The notes beneath the pieces are model-generated. The model was not told the origin of the DNA. It saw only the letters and a program-made list of their open reading frames with translations, and did not search any database. DNA of 64,000 bases from Escherichia phage JoYop. Where the stretch lies: the sequence record OR769032.1; one strand, written 5' to 3'. Both the position numbers and the translations under genes were made by a program. Position 1 is the stretch's first letter. Every line of letters starts with the position of its first letter. Positions 16,088 through 40,300 of the stretch are shown here, piece after piece.

Positions 16088-17089
16088 TTACTTAATTAAC
16101 TGTAAAGCTTGTTCAAGACGATCAAGACGATTAACAGATTCTTCCCAAATCCTTTTAGCCTGTTCATATTCTTTCTGTGCTTTATTAGAAATTTCTAGAA
16201 CTTCTTTATAAGCTTTTTCTAGTGCAATAACTTCTGGACGAATTTCTACCGGTTCAGGTGAATCATCAAGACATTCTATTAGTTCCTCAAGAGTAGTTTC
16301 TTCTTTAGGAGTATTCACAATTTCCTCGCATTTTTGTTGATAAATTTCTTTATCAGTCGGTGAGTACGCGCATTTCACTTCACGAAGGCTAATTATAATT
16401 TTATATCCTTCCCAACCACATATATTTTTGAAAGGATACGTATGAATACTTTTTACAGTTTCCATACAGCCCAAAGCCGCCTCTAACTGATGGGTTATAG
16501 TACTAGCAATTGAGAAAAATTTATTAATATTCTTTTGGTTAACTTCCGGTGTAAAAAATCCATAATTCACAAAAATAGCTACTTTATTTTTATCAAGCTC
16601 ATATTCTTTTACGATAATCATATCAGAAGCTAAAGGATGAATTTGACGATAATCACCATAACATAATTTAGAAGCTGATTTTAAAATTTGTCCTTTAAAA
16701 AGTCTGAAATTACTAATCCAACGACGAGTAAAAATATTCTCAGGGTCTTCTTTATTATTAAGATGATAAGAATTAACATCACCGAACCAATTATATCCTA
16801 CTACATCTTTGGTTCGTTTAATTTCTTTCCCAAATTTACCAAAAATATCCCGATTAACCAAATATGAAAGAAGACGAGACCCTTTAAAGGTTTCCTTAAT
16901 ATCATCTTTATCTACACGGCTAGAAATTTTACAAACTTCATGAATAAATTTACTTGAAGAAACTATACTTGCATCAATACTATTGAGCCATTGATTGATA
17001 ATAGAAAGAACACCGTGATGACTAGACATGGGTTTAACTTTATCATCAATAACGCTATTGAATGATTTGATATATTCGTTACGAGTCAT
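16088..17089 (-). CDS. coiled-coil-tailed protein, member B
   Basis: Track start TTG lies inside the promoter; ATG at 17089 (MTRNEYIKSF) with GGAGA SD; C-terminal coiled coil ending LEQALQLIK. Confidence 0.55.
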   Translation of the reverse strand: MTRNEYIKSFNSVIDDKVKPMSSHHGVLSIINQWLNSIDASIVSSSKFIHEVCKISSRVDKDDIKETFKGSRLLSYLVNRDIFGKFGKEIKRTKDVVGYNWFGDVNSYHLNNKEDPENIFTRRWISNFRLFKGQILKSASKLCYGDYRQIHPLASDMIIVKEYELDKNKVAIFVNYGFFTPEVNQKNINKFFSIASTITHQLEAALGCMETVKSIHTYPFKNICGWEGYKIIISLREVKCAYSPTDKEIYQQKCEEIVNTPKEETTLEELIECLDDSPEPVEIRPEVIALEKAYKEVLEISNKAQKEYEQAKRIWEESVNRLDRLEQALQLIK

Positions 17090-17117
17090 AATAATCTCCT
17101 CAGTAGAAAGTAAGAAC

Positions 17118-17147
17118 ATTATACCACATTCTTGTGGCAAAGTAAAC
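17118..17147 (-). promoter_or_regulatory. T4-type early promoter between family members C and B
   Basis: Minus strand GTTTAC-(18 nt)-TGG-TATAAT, overlapping the stop codon region of the upstream gene. Confidence 0.55.
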
Positions 17148-18154
17148 TAGTTCAGTGCATTTAGTGCATTGTTCAGTTTAGAACGTTGTTTTGTCAGATT
17201 TTGAACCCTTGACTGTGCTTGTTCTAACACCTTTTCAGCTTCTAACATTTCATTAGTTGCTTTAACAAGTTCATCATCTACTGCTTTAAGAGACTTCTCA
17301 ATCGCATCGGCGTGCCATTTTTCTACAGGTTTAAAATTTGAATTTTCAGTAGGAAGAAAACTCACTTTATTAAGTTTCCATGCATCTGTACTACTTGAAC
17401 TGTACATCCAACATTTAGGATCGTTGGATGAGCGATTAGTTTGAGGTTCAGGTTTTTTCTCTTGCGTAACTTCATCCTTTCTCAAATAATCATATTTAAA
17501 TGAAACGACCATATCAAGTTCATATGTTGTCGTATCTAATTTAAATCGTTCGAAATGCTGCGAAATCTTAGACTGAACAGCGGAAACAACATCCATATAC
17601 TTAAATGCTTCTGTCAATTGTGATTTAAGGCATTCACAGATTGAAAGAGAATTTTTTGTATTAGGTTTAAAGCTAATTCGTGCAGTTCTGTTATTTTCTT
17701 TTAATGGTCTTACTTCCATCTGAAGAGTATAACCATCAAATTTCAGATTCTTTAAGTTAATGTCAGAGCCTTTTAATCGACTAGCTGTGGACAAAATTTG
17801 CTTTAGTTGTTTACGAAATAGAGCAATAAATCTCCATTCAATACGATAATGATTTGGATTGAAAAATCCAGATGATAAATCGACCTTACTTTGACCAACG
17901 CCTTGAACAAATAGAGGATTTTTATAATCAATAGTTTTACAGAAATCAACGAGTTGTTCACGAGCAGTCATTTGTGTAATATACCCCGCTTTACTAAAAT
18001 GACGTAACCATTCACTGCTATTCAGATGCTTAAAGGCATGAATGGAACAATTAACTTTACCAAGGTCTAAATTATTTTCGCACAAAAATGTCATAACATC
18101 ACGAGTATAACTGGCATTACGAACAATATCTTCAATTTGAGAACGAGTTTTCAT
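17147..18154 (-). CDS. coiled-coil-tailed protein, member C
   Basis: 335 aa; N-terminus MKTRSQIEDIV; C-terminal coiled coil ending LNNALNALN. Confidence 0.55.
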   Translation of the reverse strand: MKTRSQIEDIVRNASYTRDVMTFLCENNLDLGKVNCSIHAFKHLNSSEWLRHFSKAGYITQMTAREQLVDFCKTIDYKNPLFVQGVGQSKVDLSSGFFNPNHYRIEWRFIALFRKQLKQILSTASRLKGSDINLKNLKFDGYTLQMEVRPLKENNRTARISFKPNTKNSLSICECLKSQLTEAFKYMDVVSAVQSKISQHFERFKLDTTTYELDMVVSFKYDYLRKDEVTQEKKPEPQTNRSSNDPKCWMYSSSSTDAWKLNKVSFLPTENSNFKPVEKWHADAIEKSLKAVDDELVKATNEMLEAEKVLEQAQSRVQNLTKQRSKLNNALNALN

Positions 18155-18162
18155 AGTATTCC

Positions 18163-19053
18163 TTAAGATTTAAGTAAATCAACAATTTTAATTAACTTTT
18201 CACGCTCAGATTTAGCTTTACTACTCAATCCAGATAGTCTAAAAATTTCATCATCATATTGTTGAATAGAAATATTCAGTTCTTCAATCTGTTTATTAAA
18301 ATAATCAATTTGTTCAGAATGTTTTTCGTTACTACGAACTGGTACAGGTTTTGTAGGCAATTCAATTGAACTGGATTCATCCGGGCGATAAATTAAAATA
18401 CAACTTGAACCAATTGGGCATTTTGCACCAGATGAATATTCTAATGTTCCAGCTTCTTTTAAAACTTCAAAAGCTAAGCAGAGATGATGCCCCATATTAA
18501 CATAATCTGTAGAGCGAGCTCTAATGTAATAATCAATTCCACGAGTACTAAATTTAAAGCATTTAAGGTCTTCTGTATTATTAGTCTTAAAAATCATTTG
18601 TTTATCTAGACCTTTAGCCAATCGAGCGCCTAATGCTAATAATCGTCGTTGATTTTCCCACAAATCTGTAATCATTTGATCGAATGATAATTTCGGCATT
18701 AGTCGACCATAAAGGTCATATCCTTTATTATAATTGCGAAGGATTTCACTCGCGTTAATACGAGACAATGCTCCAATTTTATTAAGGGCTTTCATAATGC
18801 GATTAGATAAACTCATTCCAGACCCATTTGTTCGCTGTAAATGTTTTTCTAATCCAAATCCAATATCAATTTTAAATTTATCTAAAATTTCAGCATGAAC
18901 ATCTCTGTCAATAACATTCAAATCCAAAGTTGGGTTAAATCTATGAAAAAATTTATCTGGCTCTCCACGACGAAATACAGTCCATTCATTCATCATTTTT
19001 TTATTAACTAAAGATTTAATTACTGCATTGACATTATTAATTACTACTGACAT
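18163..19053 (-). CDS. coiled-coil-tailed protein, member D
   Basis: Track start GTG; ATG at 19053 with GAGGAAAAT SD; C-terminal coiled coil ending LIKIVDLLKS. Confidence 0.5.
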   Translation of the reverse strand: MSVVINNVNAVIKSLVNKKMMNEWTVFRRGEPDKFFHRFNPTLDLNVIDRDVHAEILDKFKIDIGFGLEKHLQRTNGSGMSLSNRIMKALNKIGALSRINASEILRNYNKGYDLYGRLMPKLSFDQMITDLWENQRRLLALGARLAKGLDKQMIFKTNNTEDLKCFKFSTRGIDYYIRARSTDYVNMGHHLCLAFEVLKEAGTLEYSSGAKCPIGSSCILIYRPDESSSIELPTKPVPVRSNEKHSEQIDYFNKQIEELNISIQQYDDEIFRLSGLSSKAKSEREKLIKIVDLLKS

Positions 19054-19060
19054 ATTTTCC

Positions 19061-19468
19061 TCACTCAATTTCAATTTTACTAAATACACAGAATATGATT
19101 GAACAGACTACATAAGCACCACACACAGATTGAACTAATACCATCCCAAAGAACCAAACAATATTATCAAACAGTGTCTGTTTTACGTCGAAAGGACGTA
19201 AACTTACAGTAATATTATCACCTTTTTCTATTGAAGAATACATCTCTGGGGAAATATATTCACTAAATCTATAACCGTCTTTGAGTTCATATACGGCAAT
19301 AAACGATAAACTAGACCCTTTTCCTTGTGTTCCTGTAATAGTATTAACTACAGTAACATCATAATCTTTATAATGCATATAATCATTAATAGCATAATAA
19401 CCATATGCAACTACTATACATAAACAACATATCAATAAATTCAATCTTTTAATTATCAACTGTTTCAT
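19061..19468 (-). CDS. membrane protein (N- and C-terminal hydrophobic helices)
   Basis: 135 aa; hydrophobic segments LLICCLCIVVAYGYYAI and VWFFGMVLVQSVCGAYVVCSIIF. Confidence 0.45.
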   Translation of the reverse strand: MKQLIIKRLNLLICCLCIVVAYGYYAINDYMHYKDYDVTVVNTITGTQGKGSSLSFIAVYELKDGYRFSEYISPEMYSSIEKGDNITVSLRPFDVKQTLFDNIVWFFGMVLVQSVCGAYVVCSIIFCVFSKIEIE

Positions 19469-19497
19469 AATAATCTCAATTAAAAGGGCTTAGAACC

Positions 19498-19518
19498 ATT
19501 ATACCATCCTTGGTATAA
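19498..19518 (-). promoter_or_regulatory. early-promoter-like element
   Basis: Minus strand TTTATAC-(spacer)-GATGGTATAAT. Confidence 0.4.
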
Positions 19519-19523
19519 AGCGG

Positions 19524-20051
19524 TTATGCGAGTACCGTCTTTAACCGTTCTTCAAACTTCCGAAGAGTATTTTGGCGTTCAGCTCTTTGCTTTTTGTAAG
19601 TTTCAATACGCTCTGAAATGAGAGTGTATCGTTCATTCACTGATTCTTTCATAAAATCAGGAATTTCACGAGAAGCTTTAATCTCGTCAAATTTATCAAT
19701 AACAGCTTGCTCTTCAGCAATTAAGTTATCATACATTAAAATATCTTTCTTGATGAACTCAATATCTTCTTGAGTTACACGAGATAATTTAGATGCTTTA
19801 TCCTTTTTGTACTGTTCGTTAGTATCACGAGACCAGTGTAATGTACGATTTTTATTCGTATTTTTGTAAATTTCTACAATACCAATCTCATCAATAATAA
19901 CGATCCAATTCCAACGGGATTTGTAAATCTGTCCTCCATCAACCGTAATTTCACCTCCGATTGAGATGTCATTAAAGAACTTGCTTTGTGCTTCTGACTT
20001 AAATTTACCATCGTTGTAATTTACCAGGTTGAAAATATCTTTAGCATTCAT
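19524..20051 (-). CDS. hypothetical protein with C-terminal coiled coil
   Basis: Track start at 20111 lies inside the promoter; ATG at 20051 (MNAKDIFNLV) with GGAGG SD. Confidence 0.45.
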   Translation of the reverse strand: MNAKDIFNLVNYNDGKFKSEAQSKFFNDISIGGEITVDGGQIYKSRWNWIVIIDEIGIVEIYKNTNKNRTLHWSRDTNEQYKKDKASKLSRVTQEDIEFIKKDILMYDNLIAEEQAVIDKFDEIKASREIPDFMKESVNERYTLISERIETYKKQRAERQNTLRKFEERLKTVLA

Positions 20052-20079
20052 TTTCTGTTCCTCCGTAGTTGATAGTTGT

Positions 20080-20109
20080 ATAGTACCACAGAGGAACAGT
20101 CTTGTAAAC
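20080..20109 (-). promoter_or_regulatory. T4-type early promoter
   Basis: Minus strand GTTTACA-(18 nt)-TGG-TACTAT followed by the conserved ACAACTATCAAC initial transcribed region. Confidence 0.55.
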
Positions 20110-20111
20110 AA

Positions 20112-20414
20112 CTAAAAGAAACTTCTTTCACAATTTTTTCCACTGAACCAGGCGCTCACTGCTTTCTTAGTCTCGGGAGCAGTGTTATCCATAAACCATT
20201 CAAAGGCAGCCTTTTTATGATTCTGGAGGGCTTCTCGGGCTTTAATCTGCTCACGGTCTATTAACACTAACATATGAGCCTTTCTTGTCACCATGGGCTT
20301 CTTATGATTTTTTGAATACTCCCAATCATTTGTCCATCGCATTGTCGTTGCGAATTGAAGTACAGCTTCTTTAATTTTAGTTTCGTAAATTTCACGAGCC
20401 TTTGAGTATAACAT
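20112..20414 (-). CDS. hypothetical protein
   Basis: ATG at 20414 preceded by GGAGGTAATA SD. Confidence 0.45.
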   Translation of the reverse strand: MLYSKAREIYETKIKEAVLQFATTMRWTNDWEYSKNHKKPMVTRKAHMLVLIDREQIKAREALQNHKKAAFEWFMDNTAPETKKAVSAWFSGKNCERSFF

Positions 20415-20496
20415 TATTACCTCCATTCACCAGTTTAATTCTAGTCATCTTTTCGATGGCAGTCCATATAATCTATTTCTGAACTGCCTTTTTGTC

Positions 20497-21216
20497 TTAC
20501 GATTCTTCTAAATGTCTTTTCTGAAAAGTTGATACCATACTACGATATGGTTCATTTGGATACCCGTGTTTTATAGCTTCCTTTGTAAATTTTCTCCATC
20601 CATATTTGGTTTCTTTCCAAAGCTCGAATAATTCATCTTCATATTGCCATATAGTTAAATGAGAACGCTTTGCAGCTTTAATTCCATTAATGTGCTTTTC
20701 TTTTACTGTAGGATTGCTTAGTGTCTTTTTAATAATATTACTAACTTTTCTAACAAAAGCTGGGTCCTTATATCGTTGTGAAGTTTTTATTGAAGTGTTT
20801 AATTTAGCTTCCGGCGTGGATGTGACCTCTTTCATCTTTTTCTTCATATGCTGTATATGATTAGGATTTTTCCATAAATTTATAGAATGCTTTTTACATT
20901 TTATCCTAGTTTCATCTGCAACCTTTCCTCCTTCACCCCCATATGACAGGTTAACACAGTTTTTTCCATATTTCAATTTACCTGCCATGATATATAATAT
21001 TTCAGCTTGTACCATTTTATCATAATTATCAAAAACTTCTAAAACCGTTTTTGATAATATGTGGTCATTTGACACTTTTACACGTTCTATATAATTTCCA
21101 CTACCAACATATGAATCATTGATGTTATTAGTTATATGTCGACCATAATAGTATTTCTTAATACCTGTCTTTAAATTTAATATTTCAGTTTTATAGATAG
21201 TAAAATATTTTTTCAT
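20497..21216 (-). CDS. GIY-YIG family homing endonuclease (Seg-like), free-standing
   Basis: 239 aa; N-terminal FTIYKTEILNLKTGIKKYYYG resembles the GIY...YIG motif pair; basic C-terminal half typical of Seg/Tev DNA-binding regions. Confidence 0.55.
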   Translation of the reverse strand: MKKYFTIYKTEILNLKTGIKKYYYGRHITNNINDSYVGSGNYIERVKVSNDHILSKTVLEVFDNYDKMVQAEILYIMAGKLKYGKNCVNLSYGGEGGKVADETRIKCKKHSINLWKNPNHIQHMKKKMKEVTSTPEAKLNTSIKTSQRYKDPAFVRKVSNIIKKTLSNPTVKEKHINGIKAAKRSHLTIWQYEDELFELWKETKYGWRKFTKEAIKHGYPNEPYRSMVSTFQKRHLEES

Positions 21217-22181
21217 TTTAATAATACCGTTTCAGCAATTTCTTCCCAATGGTTTTTGTCGGTCATAATAAAGTCAGCAAGATAAAGAGCAGTACGCAGT
21301 GAAACATTGCGTAAACGATTAACATTAACTTTCATCCATGATAATGCTTTATAAGTTTCTTCATCAGAAAGACCACGTTTTTGCATCATGTCAGTTGAAA
21401 GAATAACATCTTCAACCCTGACCATAATTTCTTCATTAGTGTGAACACCTAAATCTAAATAAACTGAGCGGGACACTAATGCTTGTAAATGTGGAGCAAG
21501 TTTAGTTCCACGGTCTAATTCACGGTCAATGTCAACGTTTGTGATAAAAACAATCGTTCCTTTAAATTCAAACTCACGCTCAATGCCTTTTTCTTCTAAG
21601 TAAGAAGATGCAGTGCTCCAGCAGACTTTACGGGTCTCTCCAGTGTCCAGAGCAGCTTTTAGAAGATTAAGAATGTCCATATCAGAGAAAACATCCACAT
21701 CATCAATTAAAAGGACAGAATTCTCTTCACGATTATTCCAGAGCTGCTCATAAAGACCGATACCAGAGATTTTACCATTAATGCTTTTATATTCAATGTA
21801 TCCAACATCATTTGCTTTATTTAAAGCTTTATCTAAAGAATACGTTTTACCAATACCTGCCGCACCAGAGATAATTAATGAACGAATGTTTCCGTTAATA
21901 ATACCATTCGTCATCATTCCCATAACATTAAATCTTTTATTAATGCGGGTTTTCATATCTTCATATGATTCTTTAACTTCTTCAACTTTTACACCATCAT
22001 ATGAAATATCTGATTTGTAAACCCAAACACCGCGACGCTTACCGTCAATTTCAACAAAAACTTTACCATCTCCTTGTGCATCTACCGGAGCATTATCTGG
22101 GAACCATTCACCTAAGAGCTCAAAAGTTCCAGAGATTTCTTTACCGAAGTAGATACCCTTATTGATAGTTACAGTTTTCAT
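21213..22181 (-). CDS. P-loop NTPase of unknown function
   Basis: Walker A SGAAGIGKT and Walker B VLLIDDVD; track start is TTG, ATG at 22181 with GGAGAA SD. Confidence 0.55.
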   Translation of the reverse strand: MKTVTINKGIYFGKEISGTFELLGEWFPDNAPVDAQGDGKVFVEIDGKRRGVWVYKSDISYDGVKVEEVKESYEDMKTRINKRFNVMGMMTNGIINGNIRSLIISGAAGIGKTYSLDKALNKANDVGYIEYKSINGKISGIGLYEQLWNNREENSVLLIDDVDVFSDMDILNLLKAALDTGETRKVCWSTASSYLEEKGIEREFEFKGTIVFITNVDIDRELDRGTKLAPHLQALVSRSVYLDLGVHTNEEIMVRVEDVILSTDMMQKRGLSDEETYKALSWMKVNVNRLRNVSLRTALYLADFIMTDKNHWEEIAETVLLK

Positions 22182-22215
22182 TTTGTTCTCCAAATCCGTA
22201 TCAGTTGATAGTTGT

Positions 22216-22245
22216 ATAGTACCATAAAGCTTTATGCTTGTAAAC
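22216..22245 (-). promoter_or_regulatory. T4-type early promoter
   Basis: Minus strand GTTTACA-(18 nt)-TGG-TACTAT-ACAACTATCAAC. Confidence 0.55.
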
Positions 22246-22276
22246 TGTTTTGTGAAAAATTTTTAAAAATAAAAAA

Positions 22277-22294
22277 GGGAGCCCGAAGGCTCCC
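22277..22294 (-). terminator. intrinsic terminator
   Basis: GGGAGCC-TTCG-GGCTCCC followed by TTTTTTATTTTT on minus strand. Confidence 0.6.
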
Positions 22295-22296
22295 TA

Positions 22297-23310
22297 TCAT
22301 TTATAATAACTTCGGTGGTTTTCAAGATAAACCTTCTCAAGGAAGTCATCCCAGAAACTCATGTCTACTTTTTGCTGCATACCGTTCTTAGAAGCTTCAG
22401 TAGATGCTGCTTCTACTTGATCGACCACATCTTCCAAAAACTCTTGAACCGTTTTAAACGGATGCTTACCCAACTTCACGTCGAGAATAAATGGAGCATC
22501 TTTGAGTGGATAGACCAAGTCACCAGTTTTGTAAATTTCCAATAGTTGGAGTCCACCACGACAAGCATGACTTAGTGCTTTCCAGTCAATACCTTCATTG
22601 GCTTCAGCCTTACGAGCACGTTCACCGTATTCAGCATCTAATTTGTTCAGTGACTGCTTAAGCTCAATAAGAGAAAGCGTTGTCTGATATTTACGACCCA
22701 ACACAGTGTAGAACGTTTGAGGGCCTGTTTTCTCATGATTATGGAATACCCATTCACAGAATTCGTTTTCTGGAAGACGATGCTTAATATCTTCAACCTT
22801 GGTACGACGCTGCTTAATATAACCATCTTCTTGATAGTCAACCCACTGATCAGGGATTTGATTAACTACTTTCAATACATCACGTAATGCAGCCAAACGA
22901 GAACCCTTAACGCCATATTTAGAAGCTTGCTTACGAACATATCCTAAATAGGATTTCATGTTAGTCGTATAAAAACGAGAACGGTTGTCTTGAATAAACT
23001 TCCATACGTCAGGCAAATCAGATTTAACCACTAGTTCAGGTGGAGTGTGAAGCATATCTAATGCTACAGTTTCACCATCTGCTGCTAATTTAAAGAAATA
23101 CTTAAGACTATACAATTCGTGGTCAATATCATCTTTAGTGTTTTTAGATGATGTGTTGTTAGTGTTTTTACTCATGTGCTCTTTAACGTTTCCGATAAGA
23201 ATATCACGAGCAGGAGGAACAAAAATTTCTTTAAAATCTACATCAGATTCTGGAGTAGAAGTTCCATAAAGATGACTACCAAAATAGCTTTTCATTACTG
23301 TTTTCATCAT
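22297..23310 (-). CDS. nucleotidyltransferase-fold protein of unknown function
   Basis: 337 aa; N-terminal FGSHLYGTSTPESDVDF matches the G-S...D-x-D polymerase-beta-type NTase signature. Confidence 0.5.
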   Translation of the reverse strand: MMKTVMKSYFGSHLYGTSTPESDVDFKEIFVPPARDILIGNVKEHMSKNTNNTSSKNTKDDIDHELYSLKYFFKLAADGETVALDMLHTPPELVVKSDLPDVWKFIQDNRSRFYTTNMKSYLGYVRKQASKYGVKGSRLAALRDVLKVVNQIPDQWVDYQEDGYIKQRRTKVEDIKHRLPENEFCEWVFHNHEKTGPQTFYTVLGRKYQTTLSLIELKQSLNKLDAEYGERARKAEANEGIDWKALSHACRGGLQLLEIYKTGDLVYPLKDAPFILDVKLGKHPFKTVQEFLEDVVDQVEAASTEASKNGMQQKVDMSFWDDFLEKVYLENHRSYYK

Positions 23311-23768
23311 TCAGCCTTATATTCAATAACAGGACATACTTTAGCTTTACGCGCTTTTAAAAATTCGATAATAAGAGATTTCTTGGGTTGAATAGGAGGT
23401 AAATCTTTATACGCTCTATTAATATTTTCTACGTGTAAAGCATAATCCTTTTTCCATTTATAATTTTTATATTTTTCACGCAAATGCGCAGGAATAACAA
23501 ATGAACCGATAATAAGTAAAACAACCAAAAGAGCAAGTATAAATGCCGATGGAAGAAGAGTCCATAAACTACCGAAAATAAGCCAACGTTGTAGACTTTC
23601 TGCACAAATAATTGTTAGCCCTACGAGTATAGCACACCCAAAAATAGAAACGAAAAATGTAGGGATAGCAATAGACCAAAAGTATGCACATAGTGTCTTA
23701 GGTCGTTGCCATTCGTCGTTAAACAATTTGAACAATTTATAGTGCCAGGAGTTTTCATTAATAATCAT
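23307..23768 (-). CDS. integral membrane protein (about 3 TM helices)
   Basis: 153 aa; long hydrophobic stretches (IAIPTFFVSIFGCAILVGLTIICA; LLALLVVLLIIGSFVIPA). Confidence 0.45.
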   Translation of the reverse strand: MIINENSWHYKLFKLFNDEWQRPKTLCAYFWSIAIPTFFVSIFGCAILVGLTIICAESLQRWLIFGSLWTLLPSAFILALLVVLLIIGSFVIPAHLREKYKNYKWKKDYALHVENINRAYKDLPPIQPKKSLIIEFLKARKAKVCPVIEYKAE

Positions 23769-39541: not shown

Positions 39542-39618
<77 letters not shown>

Positions 39619-39622
39619 TATT

Positions 39623-39697
39623 TGGCGGACATGCATGGATTCGAACCATGGACCAATTGATTAACAGTCAACTGCTCTACCACTGAGCTACACATCC
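39623..39697 (-). tRNA. tRNA-Asn (anticodon GUU)
   Basis: Hand-folded: GGATGTG acceptor, D-arm GCTCAGTGGTAGAGC, anticodon loop CUGUUAA, T-loop TTCGAAT, CCA encoded. Confidence 0.65.
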
Positions 39698-39701
39698 AAA
39701 T

Positions 39702-39788
39702 TGGTGGGGAGTGATGGAGTCGAACCACCCGAGTCGCAATGACAATGGATTTACAGTCCACACCGCTACCTCTACGGGATAACTCCCC
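39702..39788 (-). tRNA. tRNA-Tyr (anticodon GUA), long variable arm
   Basis: 87 nt; anticodon stem-loop GTGGA-CUGUAAA-TCCAT; variable arm resembles bacterial tRNA-Tyr; D-arm fold less clean. Confidence 0.55.
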
Positions 39789-39801
39789 TTAATTCTTAAT
39801 T

Positions 39802-39876
39802 TGGTGGCCCTGGGTGGAATTGAACCACCATCTGGCGATTATGAGTCGCTTGCTTGAACCTTCCAGCTACAGGGCC
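39802..39876 (-). tRNA. tRNA with CAU anticodon (Ile2/lysidine-type or Met)
   Basis: Hand-folded: acceptor GGCCCTG, anticodon loop CUCAUAA; T4 has a CAU tRNA read as Ile. Confidence 0.6.
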
Positions 39877-39877
39877 T

Positions 39878-39953
39878 TGGTGCTGATTGACGGAATCGAA
39901 CCGCCGACCTTCTCATTACAAGTGAGTTGCTCTACCTACTGAGCTAAATCAGC
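39878..39953 (-). tRNA. tRNA-Thr (anticodon UGU)
   Basis: Hand-folded: D-arm GCTCAGTAGGTAGAGC, anticodon loop CUUGUAA. Confidence 0.65.
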
Positions 39954-39958
39954 AAAAC

Positions 39959-40048
39959 TGGCGGAGGCGATAGGATTTGAACCTATGAGTCGCCGGAGCG
40001 ACTGCCGGTTTTCAAGACCGGTGCATTAAACCACTCTGCCACGCCTCC
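39959..40048 (-). tRNA. tRNA-Ser (anticodon UGA), long variable arm
   Basis: 90 nt; anticodon stem-loop CCGGT-CUUGAAA-ACCGG. Confidence 0.65.
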
Positions 40049-40050
40049 AG

Positions 40051-40124
40051 TCTCCATACAAGGATTTGAACCTTGGACCTCCTGATCCCAAATCAGGCGC
40101 TCTACCAAACTGAGCTACACGGAG
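40051..40124 (-). tRNA. tRNA-Pro (anticodon UGG)
   Basis: Hand-folded: anticodon stem-loop CCTGA-UUUGGGA-TCAGG; CCA not encoded. Confidence 0.65.
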
Positions 40125-40134
40125 TAAATTAAAT

Positions 40135-40208
<74 letters not shown>

Positions 40209-40213
40209 AAATT

Positions 40214-40300
40214 TGGTGCGAGAAGTGGGACTCGAACCCACAAGGAAATCATTCCGCAGCATTTTAAGTGCTGTGCCTTTACCAATTTGACCATTCTCGC
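40214..40300 (-). tRNA. tRNA-Leu (anticodon UAA), long variable arm
   Basis: 87 nt; anticodon stem-loop CAGCA-CUUAAAA-TGCTG; T-arm GTGGG-TTCGAGT-CCCAC. Confidence 0.65.

What the first reader, a model, noticed from the sequence alone, without database searches (positions are those of the whole stretch)
20497..21216. Free-standing GIY-YIG (Seg-like) endonuclease between the coiled-coil family and the ATPase/NTase pair
The N-terminus has the GIY...YIG spacing (TIYKTEILNLKTGIKKYYYG) and the C-terminal half is basic, as in Seg/Tev DNA-binding domains. Its stop overlaps the ATPase gene start, which is typical of homing endonuclease insertions and may explain local mosaicism.
Basis: partly seen in the sequence, partly recalled or inferred. 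Interest (0 to 1): 0.4.

Follow-up and report, generated by a model that had tools for sequence, protein, structure and literature searches.

The report
Seg-like GIY-YIG homing endonuclease gene
This is an ordinary, already-annotated selfish gene of T4-like phages: a free-standing Seg-type GIY-YIG homing endonuclease inserted just after the nrdC.10 ATPase gene, present in about one in eight close relatives.

Summary

T4, wV7 and others lack the gene. In them about 40 nt takes the place of the ORF plus a recoded last 7 codons of nrdC.10. Three diverged homologues (41-46% identity) in other T4-like lineages also sit directly after nrdC.10. Carrier copies differ less than their flanks (0.9% vs 2.2-2.7%). 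Variable codons are 12 synonymous to 5 replacement. One copy (AR1) is frameshifted.

This is the signature of intronless homing. A link to the local mosaicism is not supported. Cleavage activity and target site are untested.

The parts
20497..21216 (-). Seg-like homing endonuclease ORF, 239 aa (equals RB32ORF093c and the T6 'putative site-specific intron-like DNA endonuclease')
   Evidence: ORF listed. It is 98-99.6% identical to annotated genes in T6, RB32, RB14, RB51 and others. PHROG 314 at 5e-30.
20923..21216 (-). N-terminal GIY-YIG catalytic domain (about residues 1-98), with Y8, Y23-x-G25, H27, D34, Y36, G38-S39-G40, E72, N89 and G93-G94
20662..20922 (-). Basic helical linker (about residues 99-185, pI 10.4) with degenerate NUMOD3-like repeats; presumed DNA-tracking region
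   Evidence: pI and charge. Predicted helices at 101-116, 118-132, 135-150, 152-166 and 169-190. 51 of 130 relatives hit NUMOD3 in this region, but the query itself does not.
20497..20661 (-). C-terminal three-helix module of about 50 aa (residues 186-239, W..y.dELf.lW...G...F...A...GYP..Y..m...F), a presumed helix-turn-helix DNA-binding domain, plus the stop codon
21213..21236 (-). Recoded 3' end of nrdC.10 that travels with the endonuclease gene. Carriers read GCT GAA ACG GTA TTA TTA AAA TGA (AETVLLK*); non-carriers read GCT GAG GTT ACT CTT CTG AAA TAA (AEVTLLK*). It includes the ATGA stop/start overlap.
   Evidence: This block differs in all 6 carriers from all 6 non-carriers. Apart from the replaced spacer, it is the only difference fixed between the two groups; the 2.2 kb flanks on each side hold none. 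The metagenomic homologue L015 has the same junction. RB69, which lacks the gene, has the EVTLLK* form.
21213..22181 (-). nrdC.10 (AAA-type ATPase of unknown function): the upstream gene, and the probable host gene of the homing site at its 3' end
   Evidence: Weak AAA-family Pfam hits and PHROG 1250. Annotated as nrdC.10 in RB32, T6 and T4. Homologues of the endonuclease follow the nrdC.10 homologue in L006, L015 and L017.
22216..22244 (-). Early-type promoter-like site (TTTACA, 17 nt, TG-TACTAT) upstream of nrdC.10; the likely source of the transcript that also carries the endonuclease ORF
   Evidence: Consensus scan only. No late-promoter TATAAATA lies within 5 kb on either side of the ORF. 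The ORF has no Shine-Dalgarno sequence and overlaps the nrdC.10 stop.
20458..20488 (-). Hairpin (GGCAGUUCA...UGGACUGCC) in the spacer just downstream of the ORF. It belongs to the ancestral nrdC.10-nrdC.9 intergenic region, and homology with gene-less phages resumes here.
   Evidence: Fold z-score -2.6. The sequence is shared by carriers and non-carriers.

Best explanation
The ORF encodes a functional, free-standing homing endonuclease of the T-even Seg type. It has an N-terminal GIY-YIG nuclease domain, a basic helical linker and a C-terminal helix-turn-helix-like DNA-binding module.

**Expression (inferred).** The gene has no promoter or ribosome-binding site of its own. It is probably co-transcribed early with nrdC.10 and translated at a low level by termination-reinitiation at the ATGA overlap.

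**Homing (inferred from SegB, SegF and SegG).** When the phage co-infects a cell with a T-even relative that lacks the gene (T4, wV7 and others), the enzyme binds the junction at the 3' end of nrdC.10 and the following spacer in the gene-less genome. In non-carriers this reads roughly GAGGTTACTCTTCTGAAATAATTCATAAGAGG. The enzyme makes a double-strand break nearby. The phage recombination machinery repairs the break from the carrier genome, which copies in the 720-bp gene and the adjacent recoded about 21 nt of nrdC.10 (intronless homing, or localized marker exclusion). The carrier is protected because the insertion splits the site and the adjacent codons are recoded.

**What is shown and what is not.** Shown here: the ORF, its homology and fold, the precise presence/absence polymorphism, the same insertion site in four lineages, lower divergence than the flanks, purifying selection, and one decayed copy. 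Inferred: enzymatic activity, the exact target and cut site, the expression mode, and homing in crosses.
For: - **Identity.** The locus is 97% identical to T6 and RB32, where the gene is annotated as seg-like. Petrov et al. 2010, Table 5, counts two seg-like HEGs in RB32 (PMC2993671).
- **Mobility signature.**
  - T4, wV7, Sf22, UFV13, PST and teqskov lack the gene. At the same point they carry about 40 nt instead.
  - About 66 of about 505 records with the locus at Tequatrovirus-level identity carry it.
  - No flanking SNP is fixed between carriers and non-carriers within 2.2 kb on either side.
  - Copies in carriers differ by 0.91%, against 2.15% and 2.74% for their own flanks.
  - Among intact copies, 12 variable codons are synonymous-only and 5 change the amino acid.
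  - The AR1 copy carries a 1-nt deletion.
- **Site fidelity.** Homologues at 41-46% identity lie directly after the nrdC.10 homologue (74-78% identity) in Klebsiella phage ValerieMcCarty03 and in two metagenomic T4-like lineages.
- **Precedent.** SegB is an experimentally proven site-specific GIY-YIG homing endonuclease (PMC2330249 abstract). Edgell et al. 2010 list SegA, B, C, E and F as active free-standing HEGs that target neighbouring genes (PMC2988022).
Against: - The protein alone gives no GIY-YIG hit in Pfam, NCBIfam or PDB sequence searches. Foldseek with the whole model found nothing.
- The equivalent of the catalytic Arg (I-TevI R27) cannot be assigned with confidence. The profile alignment treats the I-TevI R27 helix as an insertion, and the candidate R45 column is R or K in only about half of relatives.
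- I found no biochemical or genetic data for this particular gene.
- The sample for the divergence and linkage comparisons is small: 6 carriers and 6 non-carriers.
- The recoded block could be a co-conversion footprint from a foreign donor rather than an immunity determinant.
- The AR1 frameshift could be a sequencing error.
Confidence: 0.75

Rival explanations
1. Co-opted nuclease. The protein is an active GIY-YIG endonuclease, but it is kept mainly because it benefits the phage. It might exclude competing T-even genomes, or trigger recombination or segmental amplification of nearby genes, as recently reported for SegB. Under this reading it is not kept by its own selfish homing.
For: - Purifying selection: 12 synonymous against 5 replacement variable codons.
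- The lineage has stayed at the same locus across genera.
- T6 SegB promotes amplification of anti-defence loci both in cis and in trans (PMC13096335).
Against: - The gene is absent from about 87% of close relatives, and one copy is frameshifted. This fits the gain-and-decay cycle of a selfish element better than a maintained beneficial function.
- Nothing here links it to a defence or anti-defence phenotype.
Confidence: 0.1
2. Inactive relic or DNA-binding protein only. The gene arrived by homing but no longer cleaves DNA. It persists by hitch-hiking, or as a DNA-binding or regulatory protein.
For: - There is no direct Pfam hit.
- The beta-hairpin between the GIY and YIG motifs is 4 residues longer than in most relatives.
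- The catalytic Arg equivalent is unassigned.
- Decayed copies exist: AR1, and RB3 matches in two pieces.
Against: - Every invariant or near-invariant residue of the active family is retained, including E72 and N89.
- The ORF is intact in 5 of the 6 carrier copies examined; AR1 is the exception. All the high-identity records listed matched the full 239 aa at 98.3% identity or more; the two broken copies (AR1, RB3) appear.
- Substitutions are mostly synonymous.
- The longer hairpin is shared with the 46% orthologue, so it is an old feature.
Confidence: 0.1
3. Chance resemblance. The ORF is an unrelated basic protein whose N-terminus merely looks like GIY...YIG.
For: The protein alone gives no GIY-YIG match in Pfam, NCBIfam or PDB sequence searches.
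Against: - 1465 relatives at E<=0.001 in an exhaustive search.
- Many of the 130 aligned relatives hit the GIY-YIG Pfam models.
- SegB at 2e-13.
- hhalign E 1.5e-5 with the catalytic residues in register.
Confidence: 0.02

Closest known systems
RB32ORF093c and the T6, RB14 and RB51 'putative site-specific intron-like DNA endonuclease, similar to seg'
   Same: It is the same gene at the same position, at 98-99% amino-acid identity.
   Different: There are only a few substitutions: A153, T165 and T170 in the window copy. Some records mislabel it segE (AR1, RB68). T4 segE lies at the inh/uvsW locus, and the only T4 Seg gene this ORF matched at E<=1e-3 was segB.
Phage T4 SegB (experimentally characterised free-standing GIY-YIG homing endonuclease)
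   Same: Both have the N-terminal Seg-type GIY-YIG domain (Y..YxGxH...DxYxGSG...E...N..GG.GG) followed by a basic helical region with PEYREK-like repeats. BLASTP gives 27% identity over residues 21-186, E 2e-13. Both are free-standing and polymorphic among T-even phages.
   Different: The insertion site differs: SegB sits in the tRNA cluster, this gene after nrdC.10. This gene has a 4-residue longer hairpin and a different C-terminal module. SegB passes the Pfam GIY-YIG cutoff and this protein does not. Activity has been shown for SegB only.
T4 SegF and SegG (the intronless-homing paradigm)
   Same: Each is a free-standing HEG inserted between conserved genes, with its target in the neighbouring gene of HEG-less relatives, and each spreads by double-strand-break repair with co-conversion of flanking markers (as cited in PMC2993671 and PMC2988022). 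The insertion-plus-recoded-flank pattern seen here fits that model.
   Different: In this sample the linked tract is only about 21 nt, with no linkage further out. The cleavage site is unknown. The homology is distant: no T4 Seg other than SegB scored at E<=1e-3 in tblastn.
I-TevI (intron-encoded GIY-YIG endonuclease; catalytic domain 1LN0)
   Different: This gene is not intron-encoded; no Rfam family other than tRNA, and so no group I intron, reached threshold in the window. No zinc finger was seen. The I-TevI R27 helix has no clear counterpart in the alignment. Sequence identity is only about 17-18%.

Membership tests
GIY-YIG nuclease superfamily | GIY-YIG alpha/beta fold: a three-stranded antiparallel sheet with flanking helices (beta-beta-alpha-beta-alpha core) | tested here: met
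GIY-YIG nuclease superfamily | Motif residues: the Tyr of 'GIY', Tyr-x-Gly of 'YIG', the catalytic Glu (I-TevI E75) and the Asn (I-TevI N90) | tested here: met
   Y8, Y23-Y24-G25, E72 and N89 are present. These columns are invariant or at least 90% conserved across 130 relatives. They align to I-TevI Y6, Y17-G19, E75 and N90. The spacing between the motifs is 14 residues rather than 10-11.
GIY-YIG nuclease superfamily | Conserved catalytic Arg (I-TevI R27, UvrC R39) | tested here: inconclusive
   The profile alignment treats the I-TevI helix that carries R27 as an insertion. The candidates in the query are R26 and R45. The R45 column is R in 48 and K in 17 of 130 relatives. The proven enzyme SegB has the same arrangement.
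GIY-YIG nuclease superfamily | Statistically significant sequence homology to recognised GIY-YIG domains | tested here: met
   The direct hmmscan of the protein against Pfam (E<=1) and NCBIfam gave no GIY-YIG hit. Indirect evidence is significant: PHROG 314 at 5e-30; SegB at 2e-13, with SegB scoring 28.3 bits against the PF01541 cutoff of 22.6; 59 and 45 of 130 relatives hit PF19835 and PF01541; hhalign against I-TevI gives E 1.5e-5, probability 79%.
T-even Seg-type free-standing homing endonuclease genes | Free-standing: located between genes, not inside an intron or intein | tested here: met
   The ORF lies between intact nrdC.10 and nrdC.9. No Rfam family other than tRNA, and so no group I intron, reaches threshold in the window.
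T-even Seg-type free-standing homing endonuclease genes | Presence/absence polymorphism at one precise site among otherwise near-identical genomes | tested here: met
   Six carriers and six non-carriers share the same boundaries. About 66 of about 505 records with the locus at Tequatrovirus-level identity carry it. Diverged homologues occupy the same site in three other lineages.
T-even Seg-type free-standing homing endonuclease genes | C-terminal DNA-binding region (NUMOD3-type helices and/or a helix-turn-helix) | tested here: inconclusive
T-even Seg-type free-standing homing endonuclease genes | Site-specific cleavage of the HEG-less allele, and preferential inheritance of the gene in mixed infection | not testable with these tools
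   This needs biochemistry and phage crosses. I found no publication on this gene.

The most novel reading that the evidence does not exclude
This Seg lineage is an old, locus-faithful element tied to the last codons of nrdC.10 in several T4-like genera. It has become translationally coupled to nrdC.10 through the ATGA overlap and carries a recoded host-gene end. It could therefore be more than a parasite. It might act as a weapon against co-infecting relatives, or as a trigger for recombination or amplification of the nrdC.10-nrdC.11 ATPase/nucleotidyltransferase pair, by analogy with the role recently shown for SegB.
Probability: 0.1. Interest if true: 0.45.

Novelty: already known. Interest (0 to 1): 0.15.

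Why it matters
It matters little beyond bookkeeping, because the gene has been annotated as seg-like since the RB32 genome record. The analysis adds three things:
- a firm fold-level confirmation for a protein that standard domain scans miss;
- a concrete, testable target-site prediction: the 3' end of nrdC.10 plus the following spacer in gene-less T-even phages;
- the observation that this Seg lineage keeps the same insertion site across genera.

An uncharacterised Seg enzyme with a predicted target could serve as one more model of intronless homing, or as a source of a modular DNA-binding domain. No open question depends on it.

Tried and rejected
- **Direct domain and sequence searches with the protein alone gave no GIY-YIG hit.** This covers Pfam at E<=1, NCBIfam at E<=10 and phmmer against PDB. 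The only matches were weak, spurious ones (GerD, CHDCT2, PI4-kinase).
- **The word-indexed homologue search returned only 2 proteins.** The exhaustive representative search was needed to reach the family.
- The alignment contained two sequences taken from fetched loci, so I rebuilt it as A3.
- **A regulatory RNA hairpin around the start codon was rejected.** The fold z-score is +0.6.
- **An own late promoter was rejected.** No TATAAATA lies within 5 kb on either side of the ORF.
- **Paralogues in the window were rejected.** tblastn and a family HMM find only the ORF itself.
- **Linkage of flanking polymorphisms to the gene, the co-conversion tracts that might explain local mosaicism, was rejected.** There are no fixed differences within 2.2 kb on either side.
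- **IMG/VR pattern scans for the two junction types returned one contig each.** That is too few to estimate prevalence, and my second pattern matched only the T4-type junction.
- **Literature searches found no study of this gene.** I searched for RB32ORF093c, nrdC.9 and nrdC.10 together with endonuclease terms.
- **One python run timed out, and one codon count used the wrong reading frame.** Both were redone.

Full report
**What is there.** The window is a Tequatrovirus. Positions 19500-23400 are 97% identical over their full length to phages T6, RB32, RB33, RB14 and many others. The finding's coordinates hold an intact 239-aa ORF on the minus strand, 20497..21216. In RB32 the same gene is annotated RB32ORF093c, [quoted passage not shown]. 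It lies between nrdC.10 and nrdC.9. T6, RB14, RB51 and about 60 other records carry it at 98-99.6% protein identity.

The quoted N-terminal string is residues 6-25. The C-terminal half is basic: pI 9.97 for residues 100-239 and 10.4 for residues 100-185. One detail in the finding is reversed. Both genes read on the minus strand, and the upstream ATPase gene nrdC.10 ends with a TGA that overlaps the endonuclease ATG (ATGA, 21216-21213). The endonuclease stop overlaps nothing.

**Is it a GIY-YIG enzyme?** Searches with the protein alone fail.
- Pfam at E<=1 gives no GIY-YIG hit.
- NCBIfam gives nothing.
- phmmer against PDB gives nothing meaningful.
- The word-indexed homologue search found only two proteins.

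More sensitive tests all point the other way.
- PHROG 314 "homing endonuclease" matches at 5e-30 over the whole length.
- BLASTP to T4-type SegB gives 2e-13 (4e-6 database-wide by tblastn). SegB itself passes the Pfam GIY-YIG gathering score.
- An exhaustive phmmer search found 1465 relatives at E<=0.001.
- Of 130 aligned relatives, 59 hit PF19835 (SegE_GIY-YIG), 45 hit PF01541 (GIY-YIG) and 51 hit NUMOD3.
- The family's invariant or near-invariant columns are Y8, Y23, G25, H27, D34, Y36, G38, S39, G40, E72, N89, G93 and G94. All are present in the query.
- A profile of the family finds the I-TevI catalytic domain (1LN0) as its best PDB hit, at a marginal E of 0.028.
- hhalign of that profile against I-TevI gives E 1.5e-5, probability 79%. 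It aligns Y8/Y6, Y23-G25/Y17-G19, E72/E75 and N89/N90.
- An AlphaFold2 model built on the alignment has mean pLDDT 95.6 and a beta-beta-alpha-beta-alpha N-terminal domain.

The probable reason for the Pfam miss is a 4-residue longer hairpin between the two motifs, giving a spacing of 14 rather than 10-11. One superfamily feature stays unresolved. The equivalent of the catalytic Arg (I-TevI R27) cannot be assigned from the alignments. SegB, a proven enzyme, has the same arrangement.

**Evidence that it is a mobile insertion.** T4, wV7, Sf22, UFV13, PST and teqskov are 96-97% identical in the flanks but lack the gene. The boundaries are the same in all six carriers and all six non-carriers that I compared.
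- Non-carriers read ...GAAGAAAT(C/T) GCT GAG GTT ACT CTT CTG AAA TAA TTCATAAGAGG(A/C)CTTC TA(A/T)GACAAAAAGG...
- Carriers read ...GCT GAA ACG GTA TTA TTA AAA TGA, with ATGA opening the 720-nt ORF. The ORF ends ...TC(G/C) TAA GACAAAAAGG.

So the ORF replaces about 17 nt of spacer. The last codons of nrdC.10 are recoded (AEVTLLK* becomes AETVLLK*), with about 10 substitutions in 21 nt. The surrounding DNA differs by only about 2%.

Four further observations fit a selfish element.
- Apart from the replaced spacer, the recoded block is the only difference fixed between carriers and non-carriers. None of the variable sites in 2.2 kb on either side is linked to the gene.
- Among carriers, the endonuclease genes differ by 0.91%, against 2.15% and 2.74% for their own flanks. 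That fits a younger common ancestor for the gene than for its surroundings, which horizontal spread would produce.
- Among five intact copies, 12 variable codons are synonymous-only and 5 change the amino acid. That indicates purifying selection.
- The AR1 copy has a 1-nt deletion that truncates it at residue 166, and RB3 matches in two pieces. Both fit the decay phase of the homing-endonuclease life cycle, though sequencing error is possible.

About 66 of roughly 505 records with the locus at Tequatrovirus-level identity carry the gene. That count includes GenBank/RefSeq duplicates.

**Site fidelity across lineages.** Three diverged homologues occupy the same position, immediately after the nrdC.10 homologue and downstream of the nrdC.11 nucleotidyltransferase.

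| Lineage | Endonuclease identity | nrdC.10 identity |
|---|---|---|
| Klebsiella phage ValerieMcCarty03 (Jiaodavirus) | 46% | 74-75% |
| Metagenomic lineage, P0003 (L017-L019) | 45% | 74% |
| Metagenomic lineage, P0002 (L015/L016) | 41% | 78% |

In L015 the junction GAAACGGT(T)TTATTAAAATGA and the ETVLLK* end match the window. The gene caller started the ORF too late; read from the ATGA it is full length. RB69, which lacks the gene, has the EVTLLK* form. That form therefore looks ancestral and is conserved across genera, as expected for a homing site in a conserved coding sequence. The recoded block in Tequatrovirus carriers is most simply a piece of donor flank brought in with the gene. It may also contribute to self-immunity. 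I cannot separate these two readings.

**Expression (inferred).** A terminator-like hairpin follows nrdC.11 (22295-22276), and an early-type promoter-like site precedes nrdC.10 (22244-22216). No late promoter lies within 5 kb on either side of the ORF, and there is no significant RNA structure at its start. There is also no Shine-Dalgarno sequence. With the ATGA overlap (8-nt spacers in two of the homologues), this suggests low-level translation coupled to nrdC.10.

**Most likely mechanism.** This is intronless homing, as established for SegB, SegF and SegG (PMC2330249, PMC2988022 and PMC2993671). The enzyme would cleave the nrdC.10-end/spacer site of a co-infecting gene-less relative, and repair from the carrier would copy in the gene. 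Activity, target and cut geometry are inferred and have not been shown.

**Comparison and novelty.** The gene is already annotated as seg-like. Petrov et al. 2010 count two seg-like HEGs in RB32. I found no experimental study of it. It is not T4 segE, although some records call it that. The finding is correct but ordinary. The other indels in this region have their own boundaries: mobD against a membrane-protein ORF, and extra small ORFs between nrdC.10 and nrdC.11 in some phages.

Noticed in passing
window 39542-40300 (minus strand): There are nine contiguous tRNA genes: Leu, Gly, Pro, Ser, Thr, Met(CAT), Tyr, Asn and Arg. tRNA-Tyr and tRNA-Asn sit where T4-type phages (RB55 locus L004) carry segB between the CAT tRNA and tRNA-Arg. 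No segB homologue exists anywhere in the window, and no tRNA-Gln was detected. This phage would be a potential recipient for SegB homing.
   Followed up: partly
L008 (phage AR1) 2498-3216; also RB3 (KM606994.1, hit H149): The AR1 copy of the endonuclease gene has a 1-nt deletion at about codon 153 and terminates at residue 166, losing the DNA-binding end. The RB3 copy also matches in two pieces. These are either decaying copies or sequencing errors.
   Followed up: partly
window 22194-22296 (nrdC.10-nrdC.11 spacer); L010 4253-4662: This is a second indel hot spot about 1 kb from the endonuclease. Phage JE01 has two extra small ORFs between nrdC.10 and nrdC.11. Several other relatives show about 480 extra bases in this locus, with a DUF4031 protein annotated (hits H91, H109). 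The window has only a terminator-like hairpin here.
   Followed up: no
window 23307-23768 (minus strand): A 153-aa predicted membrane protein (RB32ORF096c type) occupies the place where T4 carries the HNH homing endonuclease gene mobD, next to nrdC.11. The RB32 record notes 'replaces mobD'.
   Followed up: no
window 20497-20661 (residues 186-239); proteins P0010, P0018, P0040, P0116, P0135: The C-terminal module of about 50 aa has no Pfam model. It occurs as two or three tandem copies in other Seg-like GIY-YIG proteins and alone in short proteins. It looks like an undescribed modular DNA-binding domain of phage homing endonucleases.
   Followed up: partly
L015 3872-4594: The metagenomic gene call for homologue P0002 (197 aa) starts too late. 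Read from the ATGA overlap with nrdC.10, the ORF is 239 aa and includes the GIY and YIG motifs.
   Followed up: yes
public records matched to window 16088-23310: Many GenBank records label nrdC.5 to nrdC.11, including the AAA ATPase and the nucleotidyltransferase, as 'thioredoxin', apparently propagated from the gene-name prefix. Some label mobD.1 as 'molybdopterin-guanine dinucleotide biosynthesis protein MobD', and this endonuclease as 'segE'.
   Followed up: no
They match separate PHROGs (1435, 2351, 2257), with weak cross-hits to phrog_26858 and C-terminal coiled-coil-like Pfam hits. Their function is unknown.
   Followed up: no
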